Sequence record: NC_054930.1
Length of the DNA stretch: 64,000 bases
Reading direction: 5' to 3' (one strand)
Source of the DNA: Escherichia phage PP01
Translations under genes and position numbers: made by a program
The notes under the pieces: generated by a model
What the model saw: the letters and a program-made list of their open reading frames with translations, nothing else
Databases searched by the model: none
Told to the model about the DNA's origin: nothing
In this document: piece after piece, positions 21,533 to 39,431 of the stretch
How positions within the stretch are numbered: position 1 is the stretch's first letter
Layout of the letters: each line of letters opens with the position of its first letter

Positions 21533-21719
21533 AATAATCTAGTGGTAAGAGAGTACGGTATATTTCAAACTTTGGCCCTTTTTCATAGGCATCAAATGTT
21601 TCTGTAAATTTATTATAAGCATACGCATCTACAAATTCGAGAATGACTTGCGATACCGAAGTAGAAACATCTCCACCTTCTTTTTGAGCTATAACAATTG
21701 TTTCTAAGTAAGCTTTCAT
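21531..21719 (-). CDS. Hypothetical protein
   Basis: 62-aa ORF; ATGA overlap with the gene 30 stop. Confidence 0.5.
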   Translation of the reverse strand: MKAYLETIVIAQKEGGDVSTSVSQVILEFVDAYAYNKFTETFDAYEKGPKFEIYRTLLPLDY

Positions 21720-23176
21720 AGACCAGTTACCTCATGAAAATCACCAAATACATCCTCGAATGTATTAGCTTTAGTTTTATCTTCACGTAAACGAATCGCA
21801 ATCGGAAGAAATAATTTAACGTAATCAGTGCGGCCATCAGATTTTAACCAACCATTGCATTCGCACTCTAGAATTTTTCCAATATAATAATTTTGGTTTT
21901 CCATAATGCGAGTACGGTCAAGTTCATGTGATTTTACACCGGCTTTATCTTTTAAGCCTGAACCTGCATTTACTTTAATTTTTCCACACTCTGATTCAAG
22001 AATAAATCCACCCGCTTTAGTAGGGTCTTTACGGTGAGGATAAATTCCTACAATTTTTAAATCAACATCAATTACTTCTTTAAATTTATAGAGATTTTTT
22101 GAACGAGCATTTTCCCACAATCCATCGGTATTTTTGAGAATAATACCTTCAAGACCTTGGTCAATATATTTTTTATAAATTACCTTAGCTTCATCTAGGT
22201 TATTTACTACCTGGTTTTCAATTAAAATTACTTTATCATATCCTGATGCCATTTGTTCTAGTTTAGAAAAACGTACATCATATTTTAAACGAAACGCCGG
22301 AAGACCGTATATTTCTACCAACGGAACATAATCCCAGACCTGAAACTTCATGCATTTGGCTTCTTTTTCTGAAATAGTTCCCTTTAAAGATTTATTGGCG
22401 ATTCCATTAGAAGCAGTACGAGATTCAGCTACTTCGGCAAACTCTTTAGCTTTACTGATTTCAGGAGCATCAAAAAGAAAATCTAGGCCTTCTGGTTCCT
22501 TTTCAACTTGCTCATGGTATACCAATTCGCCATCAATTAACACACCTTCTGGATGAATCTGGCGGGCTTCAGCAGTCATTTTGATTAACTCTTCCTTAAG
22601 AAGATCTAATCCTAAATATTCATTACCAGCTCGCGATAAAAGACGAACATCATCTAATTCATCGCCTCGGACTTCAGCAAAACACCGAGCTCCATCAGCT
22701 TTTAACTGTGCAAAAGCTGGAAACTTGATATTCTTACTAATGCCTTTTTCATCATAAGAACTTGCAAGCATTTGAGGTTGTTCAGGAATTAAACCTGGCC
22801 AAACTTTGTTTGCAATAGATACTGAAGCACCGCATTCAAGGTCTCGCATCATAACTCGACGCAAAACTTCAACATCATCCTTTTTACCATCGGTGATATA
22901 TCCAGTTAATTCCTCAATTGCTGCATTGCCAGTTAATTTCCGAGTAGCTAACGTGAATTCAATGAAGTCAAGCATATCGGTAATAGTCAACATTCCAAAA
23001 CTCTGGGTAGCAATACCAGGTTTAGGCCATTTCTTGATATAATATTGTAACCCACGAGAATAAGTCAGACGATATACTCGTTTAAGCAATTCATTATCTT
23101 TATTCTTTTCAAGAATTGCTTGCTTCTGTTTAGTTGATCCAATAGATGCTATTTCATTCAGAATTTTAAGAATCAT
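21716..23176 (-). CDS. 30: ATP-dependent DNA ligase gp30
   Basis: 486 aa; adenylation motif LKADGAR (KxDG); synteny. Confidence 0.9.
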   Translation of the reverse strand: MILKILNEIASIGSTKQKQAILEKNKDNELLKRVYRLTYSRGLQYYIKKWPKPGIATQSFGMLTITDMLDFIEFTLATRKLTGNAAIEELTGYITDGKKDDVEVLRRVMMRDLECGASVSIANKVWPGLIPEQPQMLASSYDEKGISKNIKFPAFAQLKADGARCFAEVRGDELDDVRLLSRAGNEYLGLDLLKEELIKMTAEARQIHPEGVLIDGELVYHEQVEKEPEGLDFLFDAPEISKAKEFAEVAESRTASNGIANKSLKGTISEKEAKCMKFQVWDYVPLVEIYGLPAFRLKYDVRFSKLEQMASGYDKVILIENQVVNNLDEAKVIYKKYIDQGLEGIILKNTDGLWENARSKNLYKFKEVIDVDLKIVGIYPHRKDPTKAGGFILESECGKIKVNAGSGLKDKAGVKSHELDRTRIMENQNYYIGKILECECNGWLKSDGRTDYVKLFLPIAIRLREDKTKANTFEDVFGDFHEVTGL

Positions 23177-23442
23177 TGCTCATCCTTCAAGGTTTGGTTT
23201 ACAGCTCTATTATAAATCAATTCATCATTAAGCTCAGGCAAAGACTTATGATATGTAGTTCTAACTTTATTTCCTTGCATCCAGTGCTTGACGTAAATGA
23301 AACCTTGCTCTACACATTTTTTAAAAATTCGTTCGTCTTTTTGAGCTCGGAATTCTGGATTGCATCTAAAAAATTGATTTACGTGACCGTAATCACGTGT
23401 AGTATTACCTTCATTTTCATAAATAGTGTGAACGACAAACAT
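23173..23442 (-). CDS. Hypothetical protein (30.1-like)
   Basis: 89-aa ORF overlapping the gene 30 start codon. Confidence 0.5.
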   Translation of the reverse strand: MFVVHTIYENEGNTTRDYGHVNQFFRCNPEFRAQKDERIFKKCVEQGFIYVKHWMQGNKVRTTYHKSLPELNDELIYNRAVNQTLKDEQ

Positions 23443-24281
23443 TAGAATGCTCCTTGAAAAATATTATCACCACTAGTAGGTCTATTATACAAATACTCTA
23501 TGCCACCAGGTTTAATATAGTTCCATGTCTGAAACGGATGTGTCTGATATGGATGATATGGATGATTATAAGGATTAAATCCAGGCGTTCTCCAGGTAGT
23601 GTTCCAAGGAAAAGAATCGTTTTTAACCATCTTCTCAATTACATCTTTTATAGCTTTTTCACTATCAAAACTTTCTTTATTTTCCTTTGGTGAAAAAAGC
23701 TTATTTTCTACATCATTCCATGTATAAACTCGCTGCGCAGTTTTTGGAATATTGTCACGCTCTCCTCGAGCCATCCAATAAACTGGAACATTTAATATTT
23801 CACTCGCATGATCGCAGTGATGAGCGAGATCGTCAATATAACAAATTACGTTATATTTCTCTTTTGCCTTTTTGAACAGCTCTTCTTTTGAAGAATCATG
23901 ACCACACATCATTACTTCTGAGAAGGCACCGGGAAAAAGAGCATTCAAATTAAATTGACGATTCAACAGAGCGTCAATAGAATCACCCAATGCTGTAACA
24001 GCTACAAAATTATAATCTTCCTTTAATTTGTTAATTACACACAGGGCATCTTTATACGGAGACAAGTAACGAATAAAATCTGAACGATTGTATTTTTCAA
24101 TTAACTTGACGCCAAGTTCTTCGTCACAATTAAAGAGTTTACCTGGAGAAATAAATTTCTCATCTTGGATCATTTTTAAAATATGTTCTAATGGAAGATT
24201 ATATTTCTGAGCAAAATAAGGAAGGCCTGATTGCCAGCTTAAACATACTCCATCAATATCAGTCAAAATAGTTGGCTTCAT
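23442..24281 (-). CDS. HAD-superfamily phosphatase, 5'(3')-deoxyribonucleotidase-like (30.2-like)
   Basis: N-terminal ILTDIDGV motif (DxDGV); aromatic/proline-rich C-terminal tail. Confidence 0.55.
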   Translation of the reverse strand: MKPTILTDIDGVCLSWQSGLPYFAQKYNLPLEHILKMIQDEKFISPGKLFNCDEELGVKLIEKYNRSDFIRYLSPYKDALCVINKLKEDYNFVAVTALGDSIDALLNRQFNLNALFPGAFSEVMMCGHDSSKEELFKKAKEKYNVICYIDDLAHHCDHASEILNVPVYWMARGERDNIPKTAQRVYTWNDVENKLFSPKENKESFDSEKAIKDVIEKMVKNDSFPWNTTWRTPGFNPYNHPYHPYQTHPFQTWNYIKPGGIEYLYNRPTSGDNIFQGAF

Positions 24282-24736
24282 AGAGAGTCTCTTAATAGAT
24301 TTAACACATCAATAAATTCAGCTTCGGTTAGTATTGTATCATCTTTTGTTAGACCACTAGCCATGCTGTGCTTCAAAACTTTTCCTTTCGAGGCTTGTAA
24401 TGCATCACGAAAGCCCCTGTTTTGGATCGCTGCTTCAAAATATGCATTTGTGTATAATTCTTTCCACGCTGGAGAGTATCTTGAAAACGGAACTCCAAGC
24501 CAGAACAACGTGCCACGGTCCTGAGCTCTAGCATAAGCTCGTCCAGCTTTTTGCGCGTCCAACCCAGACATCCCAAATATACGACGTTGTTGTTCAACAT
24601 TTTTCACCTTACATCCCTGGAGAAATCCTTCGAGACCTCCAAATTGGATACCATTCATAACGAAAGGCCATTGGGCGAAATTGCTTAATGCACATGATGG
24701 CCATCTAAAATTGCTTCTAATCTCTAACTCAGACAT
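24278..24736 (-). CDS. NADAR/YbiA-like domain protein (30.3-like)
   Basis: Motif LSNFAQWPF...GIQFGGLEGFLQ matches the YbiA/NADAR signature FSNFxxWP...EHYFQ. Confidence 0.6.
   Translation of the reverse strand: MSELEIRSNFRWPSCALSNFAQWPFVMNGIQFGGLEGFLQGCKVKNVEQQRRIFGMSGLDAQKAGRAYARAQDRGTLFWLGVPFSRYSPAWKELYTNAYFEAAIQNRGFRDALQASKGKVLKHSMASGLTKDDTILTEAEFIDVLNLLRDSL

Positions 24737-30258: not shown

Positions 30259-30259
<1 letters not shown>
30062..30259 (-). CDS. Hypothetical protein
   Basis: 65-aa ORF; stop overlaps the pseT start region. Confidence 0.45.
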
Positions 30260-31477
<1,218 letters not shown>

Positions 31478-34527: not shown

Positions 34528-35697
34528 TTAAAAATATTTTTTAAAACTCATCATAACTTTATCATCAACATCATTATCAATCTGTGCTACAAGGTAAGAT
34601 GACAGTTCTACTTCTTGCGGCGCGGATTGAACATTATCAGAATTAAGATATTCACGAATCCAAGGATATGGATGTTTAACCGGAGCATCGGTAATTGGGC
34701 ATGGAAGACCGCACTGTTTCATACGAGATACAGTTAAGTAATCAATAAAGCTCCACATGCTATTTGTATTTAATCCAGGAACATCACCATCTTTAAATAA
34801 ATGAACTGCCCAATCTTTTTCTTGACGGTTAACTTCCATGAAAATATCAACTGCTTCTTGTTCACACTCTTGAGCAATTTTAACCCATTCATCACCGTCA
34901 GTGCCAAGTTGAAGTTGACGAATAATATATTGAGTGCCTTTAAGATGAAGTTGCTCATCGCGCGCAATGAACTTCATAATCTTAGCATTACCTTCCATGA
35001 TTTCCATGTTCTTATGGAAGTTAAAGGTACATGCGAAAGATACATAAAAACGAATAGCTTCCAATGCATTGATTACATGAAGGCAAAGATAAAGAGATTT
35101 CATTAGTGCTCGTTTAGTACATTCAACAACTTTGCCTAACTCTTCTTTACGAAATCCTTCTGATAAAATTCCTTCATAATCTTCAACCGCATTCTGATAT
35201 TCACGAGTCTTAACTAGAACATCATCATAATAGCGACCAATGGACTCGGCACGTTTCATAATAGCTTTATCTAATACAATCTCATCAAATACCTTTGATG
35301 GATCAGTATAAAGATTTCGCATGATATGAGTATATGAACGGCTGTGAATAGTTTCACTAAAAGTCCATGTAGCAACCCATGTATCAAGACTTGGGTCTGA
35401 AATTAATGACATAAGTACAGCAGACGGTGCACGACCCTGAATGCTATCCAAAAGTGATTGATACTTCAGGTTATTAGTAAAAATATCTTGCTGATACTGA
35501 GGAAGCTTGTTAAATTGTGCAGCATCCATCATCAAGTTTACTTCTTCAGGACGCCAGAAAAATGACAACTGCTTTTCAGTTAAATCTTCAAAAACTTTAT
35601 GACGTTGAATATCATAACGCGCAATACCAAGACCTGAACCGAAGAACATAGGTTCTTTTAAAACATCAACTGGATTTGTATTAAAAACTGTGCTCAT
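34528..35697 (-). CDS. nrdB: Ribonucleotide reductase beta subunit, uninterrupted (no intron)
   Basis: 389-aa continuous ORF. Confidence 0.85.
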   Translation of the reverse strand: MSTVFNTNPVDVLKEPMFFGSGLGIARYDIQRHKVFEDLTEKQLSFFWRPEEVNLMMDAAQFNKLPQYQQDIFTNNLKYQSLLDSIQGRAPSAVLMSLISDPSLDTWVATWTFSETIHSRSYTHIMRNLYTDPSKVFDEIVLDKAIMKRAESIGRYYDDVLVKTREYQNAVEDYEGILSEGFRKEELGKVVECTKRALMKSLYLCLHVINALEAIRFYVSFACTFNFHKNMEIMEGNAKIMKFIARDEQLHLKGTQYIIRQLQLGTDGDEWVKIAQECEQEAVDIFMEVNRQEKDWAVHLFKDGDVPGLNTNSMWSFIDYLTVSRMKQCGLPCPITDAPVKHPYPWIREYLNSDNVQSAPQEVELSSYLVAQIDNDVDDKVMMSFKKYF

Positions 35698-38570: not shown

Positions 38571-39431
38571 TTATACCGCCATCTTTCCTTTAATTGGCGG
38601 GTGAGATACATAGTTGTTAAGAACGAAATCTTTAGGTCTAAGTTTAAGAACATATTTTAATTGTTCTTTAGTAGAAAGATATCGGAATTTATAAGGTAGA
38701 CCACTTATTACCAGCTCACAAAGCTCTTTAGGTTCACGCCTCAAAATTTCTTTACACTGTTCTACGTGATTCATATAGATATGAGTATTACCACCAGAAA
38801 ATATCAAATCTCCTGGAATAAGATTACACATCTTAGCTACAATATGAACTAACGTAGCATATGATGCAATATTAAATGGAAGACCGAGAAAAACATCTAC
38901 CGAACGTTGATACCACTGCAAATCCAAATAGCCATTACGCACATTAAACTGATAGAACATATGACAAGGCGGTAATGCCATATATTTAAGTTCAGCTGGA
39001 TTCCATGCTGAAACAATTTGACGCCTATCATTTGGCAGTTTTTTAATACGATCAACAACTTCTATAATTTGGTCTACACCACCAAAATCACGCCACTGTT
39101 TTCCATAAATTGGACCAAGTTCACCGCTATGATACCCTAAATCTTTTGCCTGATTTTCGTAATTTTCATCCCAAACTGTTTTGCCTTGAATTAATGAATC
39201 GTGCTGAATTAATCGTAAATCATTGACATTTGTGCTTCCTGATAAAAACCAAAGCAGCTCAGCAATGCAAGCTTTCCAGGCGAGCTTCTTAGTTGTTACC
39301 GCAGGAAAACCTTTAGTTAAATCCCAGCGTAATTTAGTACCAAACAAAGCAATTGTTCCTGTGCCTGTTCGGTCATCGGTTTCATAGCCATTTTCAAAAA
39401 TGTCTTTAATTAAATCTTGGTATTGTTTCAT
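38571..39431 (-). CDS. td: Thymidylate synthase, uninterrupted (no intron)
   Basis: 286-aa continuous ORF; T4 td is intron-interrupted. Confidence 0.9.
   Translation of the reverse strand: MKQYQDLIKDIFENGYETDDRTGTGTIALFGTKLRWDLTKGFPAVTTKKLAWKACIAELLWFLSGSTNVNDLRLIQHDSLIQGKTVWDENYENQAKDLGYHSGELGPIYGKQWRDFGGVDQIIEVVDRIKKLPNDRRQIVSAWNPAELKYMALPPCHMFYQFNVRNGYLDLQWYQRSVDVFLGLPFNIASYATLVHIVAKMCNLIPGDLIFSGGNTHIYMNHVEQCKEILRREPKELCELVISGLPYKFRYLSTKEQLKYVLKLRPKDFVLNNYVSHPPIKGKMAV

What the first reader, a model, noticed from the sequence alone, without database searches (positions are those of the whole stretch)
23442..24281. HAD-type nucleotidase-like protein with an aromatic/proline/histidine-rich tail
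The 279-aa ORF begins with ILTDIDGV, the aspartate-nucleophile motif of HAD phosphatases and 5'(3')-deoxyribonucleotidases. It ends in an unusual low-complexity tail (FPWNTTWRTPGFNPYNHPYHPYQTHPFQTWNY). A nucleotidase would be consistent with the nucleotide-pool remodelling genes in this window (cd, nrdAB, td, frd). The tail could mediate protein or membrane association.
Basis: partly seen in the sequence, partly recalled or inferred. Interest (0 to 1): 0.35.

Follow-up and report, generated by a model that had tools for sequence, protein, structure and literature searches.

The report
T4 gp30.2: nucleotidase-like HAD phosphatase
This is the T4 gene 30.2 orthologue, an uncharacterised early phage protein that is almost certainly an active HAD-family phosphatase most like 5'(3')-deoxyribonucleotidases, with a fast-evolving, disordered, aromatic/proline-rich tail of unknown role; it is a sensible annotation, not a surprise.

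Summary
A 279-aa ORF lies at 23442..24281 on the minus strand and is 98% identical to T4 gp30.2, which RefSeq calls "hypothetical protein". It is translationally coupled to 30.3 (AdfN), 30.1 and DNA ligase.

- The protein has no direct Pfam or NCBIfam hit.
- All four HAD motifs are conserved across homologues: D8/D10, K132 and D150/D151 invariant, T96 in at least 90%.
- The AlphaFold model (pLDDT above 90 for residues 1-195) is a C1-capped HAD fold.
- 44 of 142 distant family representatives match Pfam NT5C.
- A broad family profile hits nucleotide phosphatases first in the PDB.

Substrate and activity remain untested.

The tail is real. It has the most extreme aromatic/Pro/His composition in the window and is predicted to be disordered. 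It is under purifying selection, but weaker than on the core (dN/dS 0.05-0.28 against 0.02-0.06). Close relatives differ by in-frame changes in "PY" repeat number. Other genera carry different tail classes, and many relatives have no tail.

The gene sits within two genes of DNA ligase in 13 of 13 loci examined.

Verdict: a new member of a known kind, of modest interest.

The parts
23442..24281 (-). Complete CDS, the orthologue of T4 gene 30.2 (279 aa plus the stop codon at 23442-23444)
   Evidence: ORF listing. 98% identity to T4 NP_049815. More than 640 phage records carry it.
23694..24281 (-). HAD phosphatase core plus cap, residues 1-196
24246..24260 (-). HAD motif I, D8-I-D10-G-V (nucleophile Asp8, acid/base Asp10)
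   Evidence: D8 and D10 are invariant in 69 homologues and at least 90% conserved in 142 distant representatives.
24012..24245 (-). All-alpha C1 cap inserted between motif I and motif II, residues 13-90. It includes conserved W16, S18, F43, Y64, N65 and S67.
   Evidence: Six helices between strand 4-7 and strand 91-96 in the model. Conservation. W16, F43 and Y64 align with cdN F18, F44 and Y65 in the HMMER alignment to 2jao.
23994..23996 (-). HAD motif II, Thr96 (VTALG)
   Evidence: At least 90% conserved. It lies at the end of strand 91-96.
23886..23888 (-). HAD motif III, Lys132
   Evidence: Invariant in both A1 and A2.
23829..23834 (-). HAD motif IV, Asp150-Asp151 (YIDDL)
   Evidence: Invariant in A1. 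D151 is at least 90% conserved in A2. The pair lies at the end of strand 145-150.
23619..23693 (-). Charged linker and predicted amphipathic helix, residues 197-221 (helix 207-220)
   Evidence: The model predicts a helix at 207-220, and the mean pLDDT of residues 211-220 is 88. 48% charged residues. Hydrophobic moment 1.59.
23445..23618 (-). Disordered aromatic/Pro/Asn/Thr/His-rich tail, residues 222-279
   Evidence: Mean pLDDT per 10-residue block is 42-52, with most residues below 50. Extreme composition. The extension (residues 197 to the end) has dN/dS 0.05-0.28 within the genus. Wimley-White interfacial sum is -5.3 kcal/mol, in the lowest 0.2% of windows, with no transmembrane segment.
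23535..23576 (-). Short 'N/H-P-Y' repeat tract (NPYNHPYHPYQTHP, residues 236-249) whose copy number varies in frame among Tequatroviruses
   Evidence: A 9-nt tandem repeat at 23545-23566. Gene lengths of 837, 840, 846, 855, 864 and 873 nt, all in frame, with the indels in this tract.
23475..23507 (-). C-terminal 'GGIEYLYNRPT' element, residues 259-269
   Evidence: A G(T)GIEYLxxQPT-type element recurs in 12 of 47 long-tailed homologues from several genera. It is replaced by GDAGYFNRLT in some Tequatroviruses.
24278..24736 (-). Context: gene 30.3 = AdfN, a NADAR DNA ADP-ribosylglycohydrolase active against DarTG1. Its stop codon overlaps the 30.2 start by 4 nt.
   Evidence: Pfam Phage_30_3, E=9e-69. 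PMC11825919. Coordinates.
23173..23442 (-). Context: gene 30.1 (DUF3045). Its start codon overlaps the 30.2 stop by 1 nt.
   Evidence: Pfam DUF3045, E=5.6e-63. Coordinates.
21716..23176 (-). Context: gene 30, ATP-dependent DNA ligase. It lies within two genes of the HAD gene in all 13 loci examined.
   Evidence: Pfam DNA_ligase_A_M. Adjacency.

Best explanation
The ORF is the orthologue of T4 early gene 30.2. It most likely encodes an active, Mg2+-dependent HAD phosphomonoesterase. Asp8 would attack the substrate phosphate to form an aspartyl-phosphate intermediate, and Asp10 would act as general acid/base. Thr96 and Lys132 (and probably Arg108) would hold the phosphate, and Asp150/Asp151 would hold the metal. 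A ~75-residue helical C1 cap closes over the active site, which restricts it to a small substrate. The cap carries conserved aromatic residues (Trp16, Phe43, Tyr64) at the aligned positions of the base-stacking residues of cytosolic 5'(3')-deoxyribonucleotidase. The most likely substrate is therefore a nucleoside or deoxynucleoside monophosphate. The enzyme would be made early, co-translated with AdfN, gp30.1 and DNA ligase. It would trim or sanitise the (d)NMP pool created when the phage degrades host DNA. The 83-residue C-terminal extension is not part of the catalytic fold. It has a charged linker with an amphipathic helix, followed by an intrinsically disordered Trp/Tyr/Phe/Pro-rich segment with lineage-specific terminal motifs. 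It most likely acts as a localisation or partner-binding module (protein or membrane interface) whose target changes between phage lineages. Shown here: ORF, orthology, fold, motif conservation, family link to NT5C, disorder, selection on the tail, and gene neighbourhood. Inferred: catalytic competence, nucleotide substrate, physiological role and tail function.
Confidence: 0.6

Rival explanations
1. It is a generic small-molecule HAD phosphatase acting on a non-nucleotide phosphoester, such as a sugar phosphate, phosphoglycolate, FMN or another metabolite. It would serve as an auxiliary metabolic or house-cleaning enzyme.
Against: Sequence-profile links point specifically to nucleotide phosphatases: NT5C is the commonest Pfam family among relatives, and 3bwv and SDT1/SSM1 are the first PDB hits. 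The conserved cap aromatics align with cdN cap residues.
Confidence: 0.15
2. It is a DNA- or RNA-end phosphatase (polynucleotide 3'- or 5'-phosphatase) that prepares termini for the adjacent DNA ligase, like the phosphatase domain of T4 PseT.
Against: The matches to PNK phosphatase cover only the ~125-residue Rossmann core. gp30.2 has a large C1 cap. By established HAD structure-function rules (recalled: Burroughs et al. 2006; Allen and Dunaway-Mariano), a C1 cap encloses small substrates, whereas polynucleotide phosphatases are capless. The phage already encodes PseT, with a strong HAD_PNKP domain at 30259-31164. Adjacency to ligase may simply reflect conserved synteny in T4-like genomes.
Confidence: 0.08
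3. Its selected role is counter-defence. Either it depletes a nucleotide that host immune systems use as precursor or trigger (as T5 Dmp depletes dAMP against Kongming; m6-dAMP triggers PUA-Cal-HAD), or it acts as the unidentified T-even factor that AdfN (30.3) needs for full activity. The fast-evolving tail would then reflect an arms race.
For: T5 Dmp is a phage dNMP phosphatase with HAD motif I, and it blocks Kongming by removing dAMP. m6-dAMP released by T-even degradation of host DNA triggers a defence system. 30.2 overlaps the anti-DarTG1 gene 30.3 by 4 nt, and AdfN(T4) works fully only during T-even infection, possibly because it needs another T-even protein. The tail evolves 5-10 times faster than the core and switches class between genera. 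The close family is essentially phage-restricted.
Against: There is no sequence relationship to T5 Dmp beyond motif I (hhalign probability 1.6%). No PADLOC hit. 30.3 is adjacent in only 6 of 13 loci. T2 is restricted by PUA-Cal-HAD, although T2 shares about 90% of this 10-kb region at 95% identity (I did not check directly that T2 carries 30.2). The T4 transposon screen text does not mention 30.2. Tail dN/dS stays below 1.
Confidence: 0.12
4. It is a catalytically dead pseudo-enzyme or a decaying accessory gene, and the tail is meaningless read-through sequence.
For: The gene is non-essential by inference: RefSeq annotates it only as hypothetical, and no phenotype is reported. The tail is absent in many relatives.
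Against: All catalytic residues are conserved. Core dN/dS is 0.02-0.06 and extension dN/dS 0.05-0.28. All six Tequatrovirus length variants examined keep the reading frame and the C-terminal SGDNIFQGAF. The only apparent truncated variant (P0002) ends in a sequence I recognise as translated Illumina adapter.
Confidence: 0.03

Closest known systems
5'(3')-deoxyribonucleotidases, Pfam NT5C (PF06941): human and mouse cdN and mdN, and the S. epidermidis protein 3bwv
   Different: The protein itself does not reach any NT5C score and shares about 15-21% identity with the structures. It has its own strongly conserved signature (WQSGLPYF, YNxSDFIRYL, NRQFNLNALFPGAF). It carries an 83-residue disordered C-terminal extension that NT5C enzymes lack. 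Activity is untested.
Phage T5 Dmp (deoxynucleoside-5'-monophosphatase), the anti-Kongming factor
   Same: An early phage protein with HAD motif I (WDLDGT; the paper's D22A mutant falls at the first Asp of this motif) that dephosphorylates dNMPs released from host DNA. It is the clearest precedent for what a phage HAD nucleotidase is for.
   Different: No detectable sequence relationship beyond motif I (hhalign probability 1.6%). Different phage family and genomic position (first-step-transfer DNA). No aromatic tail. T5 discards host nucleotides, whereas T4 recycles them.
T4 PseT (polynucleotide kinase/3'-phosphatase) HAD domain
Yeast SDT1/SSM1 pyrimidine 5'-nucleotidase (3nuq, 3onn, 3opx)
   Same: A C1-capped HAD nucleotidase. 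It is the second-best group of PDB hits for the broad family profile (E about 5e-6 to 1e-4).
   Different: The match covers only the motif III-IV region (about 60 residues). The cap is not aligned.

Membership tests
HAD (haloacid dehalogenase-like) phosphatase superfamily | Motif I, DxDx(T/V), at the end of strand 1 (nucleophile and acid/base aspartates) | tested here: met
   D8-I-D10-G-V. D8 and D10 are invariant in 69 homologues and at least 90% conserved in 142 representatives.
HAD (haloacid dehalogenase-like) phosphatase superfamily | Motif II (Ser/Thr), motif III (Lys/Arg) and motif IV (DD/DxxxD) in the canonical order on successive strands | tested here: met
   T96 at the end of strand 91-96, K132 before helix 133-142, and D150-D151 at the end of strand 145-150.
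HAD (haloacid dehalogenase-like) phosphatase superfamily | Rossmannoid three-layer alpha/beta fold | tested here: met
HAD (haloacid dehalogenase-like) phosphatase superfamily | A match to a curated HAD sequence model | tested here: not met
   No Pfam or NCBIfam family even at E up to 1 or 10. Relatives do match Hydrolase and HAD_2.
NT5C / 5'(3')-deoxyribonucleotidase family (PF06941) | A score above the Pfam NT5C gathering threshold | tested here: not met
   No hit for the query. The criterion is met only transitively: 44 of 142 relatives hit NT5C at E up to 0.01, with a best E of 4.2e-10, and P0242 scores 31.5 bits against a cut-off of 24.8.
NT5C / 5'(3')-deoxyribonucleotidase family (PF06941) | A helical C1 cap inserted immediately after motif I, and no C2 cap | tested here: met
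   Helices 16-26, 32-40, 46-49, 54-65, 68-72 and 77-86 lie between strand 1 and strand 2. Only one helix and one strand lie between motifs II and III.
NT5C / 5'(3')-deoxyribonucleotidase family (PF06941) | Cap and core aromatic residues that stack on the nucleobase (cdN F18, F44, L45, Y65; mdN F49, F75, W76, W96, as recalled from Rinaldo-Matthis 2002 and Wallden 2005/2007) | tested here: inconclusive
   In the HMMER alignment to 2jao, W16, F43, I44 and Y64 align with F18, F44, L45 and Y65. W16 and Y64 are invariant and F43 at least 90% conserved. But the alignment is marginal (E=0.087), and I could not verify the role of the cdN residues in the paper library.
NT5C / 5'(3')-deoxyribonucleotidase family (PF06941) | Mg2+-dependent hydrolysis of 5'- and 3'-(deoxy)nucleoside monophosphates | not testable with these tools
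   This needs an enzyme assay. No published assay for gp30.2 was found.
Phage Dmp-type anti-Kongming dNMP phosphatases (T5 Dmp) | Sequence homology to T5 Dmp | tested here: not met
   hhalign probability 1.6%, with only motif I aligned.
Polynucleotide 3'-phosphatase (PNKP-type HAD) | A capless (C0) HAD core with an open active site, and a match to the HAD_PNKP model | tested here: not met
   A large C1 cap is present. There is no HAD_PNKP hit for the query, whereas PseT in the same window scores E=6.8e-56.

The most novel reading that the evidence does not exclude
gp30.2 is a T-even counter-defence enzyme. It would be a (modified) dNMP phosphatase that removes nucleotide precursors or danger signals generated when the phage degrades host DNA (for example dAMP for Kongming-type dITP signalling, or m6-dAMP for PUA-Cal-HAD-type sensors). 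Alternatively it could be the missing T-even cofactor of the adjacent anti-DarTG1 enzyme AdfN. In either case the rapidly diversifying, repeat-containing aromatic tail would target it to a lineage-specific partner.
Probability: 0.12. Interest if true: 0.65.

Novelty: new member of a known kind. Interest (0 to 1): 0.3.

Why it matters
T4 is the best-studied lytic phage, yet gene 30.2 is still 'hypothetical protein' in RefSeq, and about 1,000 related phage records carry it. A well-supported assignment as an NT5C-like HAD phosphatase with intact catalytic residues gives a directly testable biochemical function for this conserved early gene. Nucleotide pools and nucleotide-derived signals are now recognised battlegrounds between phages and bacterial immunity (T5 Dmp against Kongming; m6-dAMP sensing). 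A T-even nucleotidase encoded next to the anti-DarTG1 gene adfN is therefore a reasonable candidate to include in counter-defence screens. The tail is a compact natural example of an enzyme-appended disordered region that keeps its composition while its sequence, repeat number and terminal motif turn over between lineages.

Tried and rejected
1. Direct family assignment: Pfam, NCBIfam and PADLOC gave nothing for the query, and PHROGs gave only 'unknown function'. Single-sequence phmmer against the PDB gave only a spurious RanGAP hit.

2. Literature: searches for 'gp30.2', 'gene 30.2', NP_049815 and T4p204 found nothing relevant. The two phage transposon-screen preprints do not mention 30.2 in their main text.

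3. Fusion proteins as functional clues: P0151, P0198, P0103 and P0143 have extra domains with no Pfam match, so they are uninformative.

4. Tail as a portable module: a database search with the tail alone found only short gp30.2 fragments. Rejected.

5. Tail as the gp30.1-binding element, an idea prompted by the P0015 fusion of core and 30.1. A small ORF lies between the HAD gene and the ligase in 5 of 5 tail-bearing loci, against 1 of 6 tail-less loci. However, tail-less P0008 has a firm DUF3045 neighbour, tail-less P0097 has a weak 30.1-like ORF upstream, the two unannotated ORFs are only marginally 30.1-like, and the sample is phylogenetically non-independent. Inconclusive and not adopted.

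6. Obligatory partnership with AdfN: 30.3 is adjacent in only 6 of 13 loci. Not supported as a general rule.

7. Homology to T5 Dmp: rejected.

8. Natural tail-less truncation in close relatives (P0002): rejected as an adapter-derived artefact, because the sequence ends ...RSEEHTSELQS (the adapter identification is from my own knowledge).

9. Regulatory or RNA elements in the tail-coding DNA: promoter-like sites are not clearly above shuffled controls (12 against 7.4 +/- 2.4), there is no terminator, and there are no Rfam hits.

10. Cellular homologues for context: only one hit in 185,579 species genomes, on a phage-like 178-kb contig. The scan with the broader alignment failed for lack of conserved stretches.

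11. Verification of the cdN/mdN base-stacking residues in the paper library failed.

Full report
OBSERVATION. The ORF exists as described, but on the minus strand: window 23442..24281, 279 aa, ATG start. It begins MKPTILTDIDGV. The quoted aromatic/Pro/His-rich stretch is at residues 224-255 and is followed by 24 further residues. The window is a Tequatrovirus (T4-like) genome. The ORF is 98% identical to T4 gp30.2 (NP_049815), which RefSeq annotates as 'hypothetical protein'. It is found at 91-99% DNA identity in about 500 phage records. Its start overlaps the stop of gene 30.3 by 4 nt. Its stop overlaps the start of gene 30.1 by 1 nt. Gene 30.1 in turn overlaps the DNA ligase gene 30 by 4 nt. 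The four genes therefore form a translationally coupled early block. Gene 30.3 is AdfN, a NADAR enzyme that removes DarT1 ADP-ribosylation from DNA (PMC11825919).

IS IT A HAD ENZYME? Direct library searches fail. There is no Pfam, NCBIfam or PADLOC hit, and the PHROG family (420) has unknown function. Everything else says HAD.

An alignment of 69 homologues at 33-73% identity shows invariant D8 and D10 (motif I), K132 (motif III) and D150-D151 (motif IV), and T96 (motif II) conserved in at least 90%. A further set of invariant residues includes W16, S18, Y64, S67, D78, N84, R108, N111, F116, P117 and R172. In 142 more distant representatives (20-47% identity), R108 and K132 remain invariant, and D8, D10, W16, N111 and D151 are at least 90% conserved.

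WHICH KIND OF HAD? Four lines of evidence point to the 5'(3')-deoxyribonucleotidase (NT5C) branch.
- A profile search of 1.84 billion cluster representatives finds 1,330 relatives, mostly 190-215 aa. Of the best 142, 44 match Pfam NT5C (best E=4.2e-10). That is more than match the generic HAD_2 (25) or Hydrolase (22) models. One of them, P0242, passes NT5C's gathering score.
- The close-family profile's best PDB hit is mouse cdN (2jao, E=0.087), aligned from motif I to motif II. The broad-family profile hits 3bwv at 2.3e-6, followed by the yeast pyrimidine nucleotidase SDT1/SSM1.
- In the 2jao alignment, gp30.2 W16, F43, I44 and Y64 align with cdN F18, F44, L45 and Y65. I recall these as the residues that form the nucleobase pocket of cdN (mdN F49, F75, W76, W96), but I could not verify that in the paper library. 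PMC3946280 confirms only the general rule that intracellular 5'-nucleotidases are HAD enzymes whose cap residues bind the base by pi-stacking.

A large C1 cap argues for a small-molecule substrate and against a polynucleotide end, on established HAD structure-function rules that I am citing from memory. T4 PseT, the capless polynucleotide 3'-phosphatase, aligns only over its ~125-residue core. It is separately encoded in this window at 30259-31164.

THE TAIL. Residues 197-279 lie outside the fold. They comprise a charged linker with a predicted amphipathic helix (207-220; the mean pLDDT of residues 211-220 is 88), followed by a segment with mean pLDDT of 42-52 per 10-residue block.

Composition. 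Residues 223-256 are 29% aromatic, 18% Pro, 32% Asn/Gln/Thr, 3% charged and 3% aliphatic. Their F/W/Y/P/H content (56%) is the highest of any 34-residue window in any ORF of at least 100 aa in the window.

Selection. The tail is real coding sequence. Within Tequatrovirus, dN/dS for the extension is 0.05-0.28, against 0.02-0.06 for the core. Six gene-length variants (837 to 873 nt) all differ by in-frame indels in a short 'N/H-P-Y' repeat tract. A 9-nt DNA tandem repeat underlies that tract. The C-terminal SGDNIFQGAF is retained in these variants.

Turnover between genera. DNA similarity stops at residue ~192. Of 69 homologues, 47 have extensions of 40 or more residues. All are Trp/Pro-rich, but they fall into classes with different terminal motifs: G(T)GIEYLxRQPT, DLRAYY, LLNKVxANDSD, DWWNNxRITC, KWTIKGPSSLRASF and others. 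The remaining 22 have essentially no extension. The T4-type tail is not found on any other protein.

Membrane question. The summed Wimley-White interfacial free energy is -5.3 kcal/mol, in the lowest 0.2% of windows from other ORFs. There is no transmembrane-grade hydrophobic stretch (the scale values are recalled). Peripheral membrane or protein-surface binding is therefore physically plausible but not shown.

An apparent tail-less variant among close relatives (P0002) ends in RSEEHTSELQS. I recognise this as translated Illumina adapter, so it is an artefact.

NEIGHBOURHOOD. All are on the minus strand. But they lie 3.6-16 kb away, beyond rIII, gene 31 and many small ORFs. The support they give is therefore generic.

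The constant neighbour is DNA ligase. It lies within two genes of the HAD gene in 13 of 13 loci. These include phages whose HAD is only ~40% identical, and one locus where the order is reversed. This may be inherited synteny or co-expression, and I cannot distinguish the two.

The NADAR gene 30.3 is adjacent in 6 of 13 loci. DUF3045 (30.1) is firmly present in 5 loci and marginally in 3 more. One short metagenomic contig encodes a tail-less core fused to a 30.1-like domain (P0015). I tested whether tail presence tracks 30.1, and the result was suggestive but inconclusive.

The close family is essentially phage-restricted. There was one hit in 185,579 species genomes, on a 178-kb phage-like contig.

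MECHANISM AND ROLE. The best-supported reading is an active Mg2+-dependent phosphomonoesterase that works through an Asp8 phospho-intermediate and acts on a (deoxy)nucleoside monophosphate held under the cap by conserved aromatics. The physiological purpose is inferred only.

T4 generates large amounts of dNMPs, including Dam- and Dcm-methylated ones, by degrading host DNA. A nucleotidase could trim or sanitise that pool.

There is now a clear precedent that such an enzyme can be a counter-defence. T5 Dmp carries HAD motif I and dephosphorylates dNMPs. It blocks the Kongming system by removing dAMP, the precursor of the dITP signal (bioRxiv 10.1101/2024.12.20.629578). In addition, m6-dAMP released by T-even degradation of host DNA triggers the PUA-Cal-HAD system (PMC12871103).

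However, gp30.2 is not homologous to Dmp beyond motif I. T2 is restricted by PUA-Cal-HAD although it shares most of this region; I did not check directly that T2 carries 30.2. No data connect 30.2 to any defence system.

A second speculative link comes from the AdfN paper. AdfN(T4) works fully only during T-even infection, and the authors suggest it may need another T-even protein. 30.2 is the overlapping downstream gene. But the two genes co-occur in only about half of the loci.

COMPARISON AND NOVELTY. The protein works like, and is distantly related to, NT5C-type 5'(3')-deoxyribonucleotidases. It fails the formal Pfam membership criterion itself, though many relatives pass. It is best described as a divergent, phage-specific subfamily of NT5C-like HAD phosphatases. 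A few database records already label orthologues as HAD hydrolase, phosphatase or 5'-nucleotidase. The assignment is therefore not new in kind, only better supported here. The disordered, compositionally conserved but sequence-variable tail is an unusual appendage for this enzyme class and remains unexplained.

Overall this is a new member of a known kind, of modest interest (0.3). There is a minority chance (about 0.12) that it is a nucleotide-targeting counter-defence factor, which would be considerably more interesting.

Noticed in passing
window 23535-23576 (-); loci L003-L006: The 'N/H-P-Y' tract of the tail varies in copy number, always in frame, among closely related Tequatroviruses (gene lengths 837 to 873 nt). 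A 9-nt DNA tandem repeat (TGATATGGA, 2.4 copies at 23545-23566) underlies it. This looks like slippage-driven length polymorphism in a coding repeat.
   Followed up: partly
13 loci: window, L001, L007-L017: The HAD gene lies within two genes of the ATP-dependent DNA ligase in 13 of 13 T4-like loci, including one (L008) where the ligase is upstream instead of downstream. The small genes around them (30.1, 30.3 and others) come and go.
   Followed up: partly
P0015 (302 aa; 1.4-kb Logan contig): A tail-less 30.2 core reads straight into a gp30.1-like (DUF3045) domain, giving a possible natural fusion. Its motif I reads DIDDV (Gly to Asp), and the contig is short, so an assembly or frameshift artefact is not excluded.
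   Followed up: partly
P0002 (220 aa, 39 member sequences): This apparent truncated gp30.2 cluster ends in ...RSEEHTSELQSQN. That appears to be a translated Illumina adapter, so it is adapter contamination in public assemblies and not a natural variant.
   Followed up: yes
window 38571-39431 (td) and 34528-35697 (nrdB), minus strand: Thymidylate synthase (286 aa) and the ribonucleotide reductase small subunit (389 aa) are uninterrupted ORFs with full-length Pfam matches. As I recall, T4 itself carries group I introns in td and nrdB, so this phage appears to lack them.
   Followed up: no
window 24373-24600 (-): A 75-aa ORF lies in a different frame inside gene 30.3. It corresponds in position and length to the T4 annotation 30.3' ('internal translation, in a different reading frame').
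   Followed up: no
L010 (NZ_JBHSCL010000010.1, Flagellimonas marina assembly, 178,077-bp contig): The only 'bacterial genome' hit carries 30.3-like, 30.2-like and ligase genes in T4 order on a contig of T4-like genome size. It is probably a co-assembled T4-like phage and not chromosomal DNA.
   Followed up: no
L002:124-858 (-), phage T5 dmp: T5 Dmp, an experimentally characterised dNMP phosphatase and anti-Kongming factor, has recognisable HAD motifs (WDLDGT, ICTAR, MIDD) but matches no Pfam model at E up to 0.1. Curated libraries seem to cover phage HAD nucleotidases poorly.
   Followed up: partly
P0143 (365 aa), P0151 (591 aa), P0198 (660 aa), P0103 (430 aa): Distant family members are fused to additional domains that have no Pfam match. 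By eye, the C-terminus of P0143 contains a ParB/sulfiredoxin-like 'GRHR' segment, and the N-terminus of P0151 contains a nucleotidyltransferase-like 'GDLDII' segment. Neither was tested.
   Followed up: no
window 23565-23594 (-): A sigma-70-like site (TGGAGA, 18-nt spacer, TATAAT; 10 of 12 matches) lies inside the tail-coding region, upstream of gene 30.1 and the ligase. The overall count of such sites in the region is not clearly above shuffled controls.
   Followed up: no
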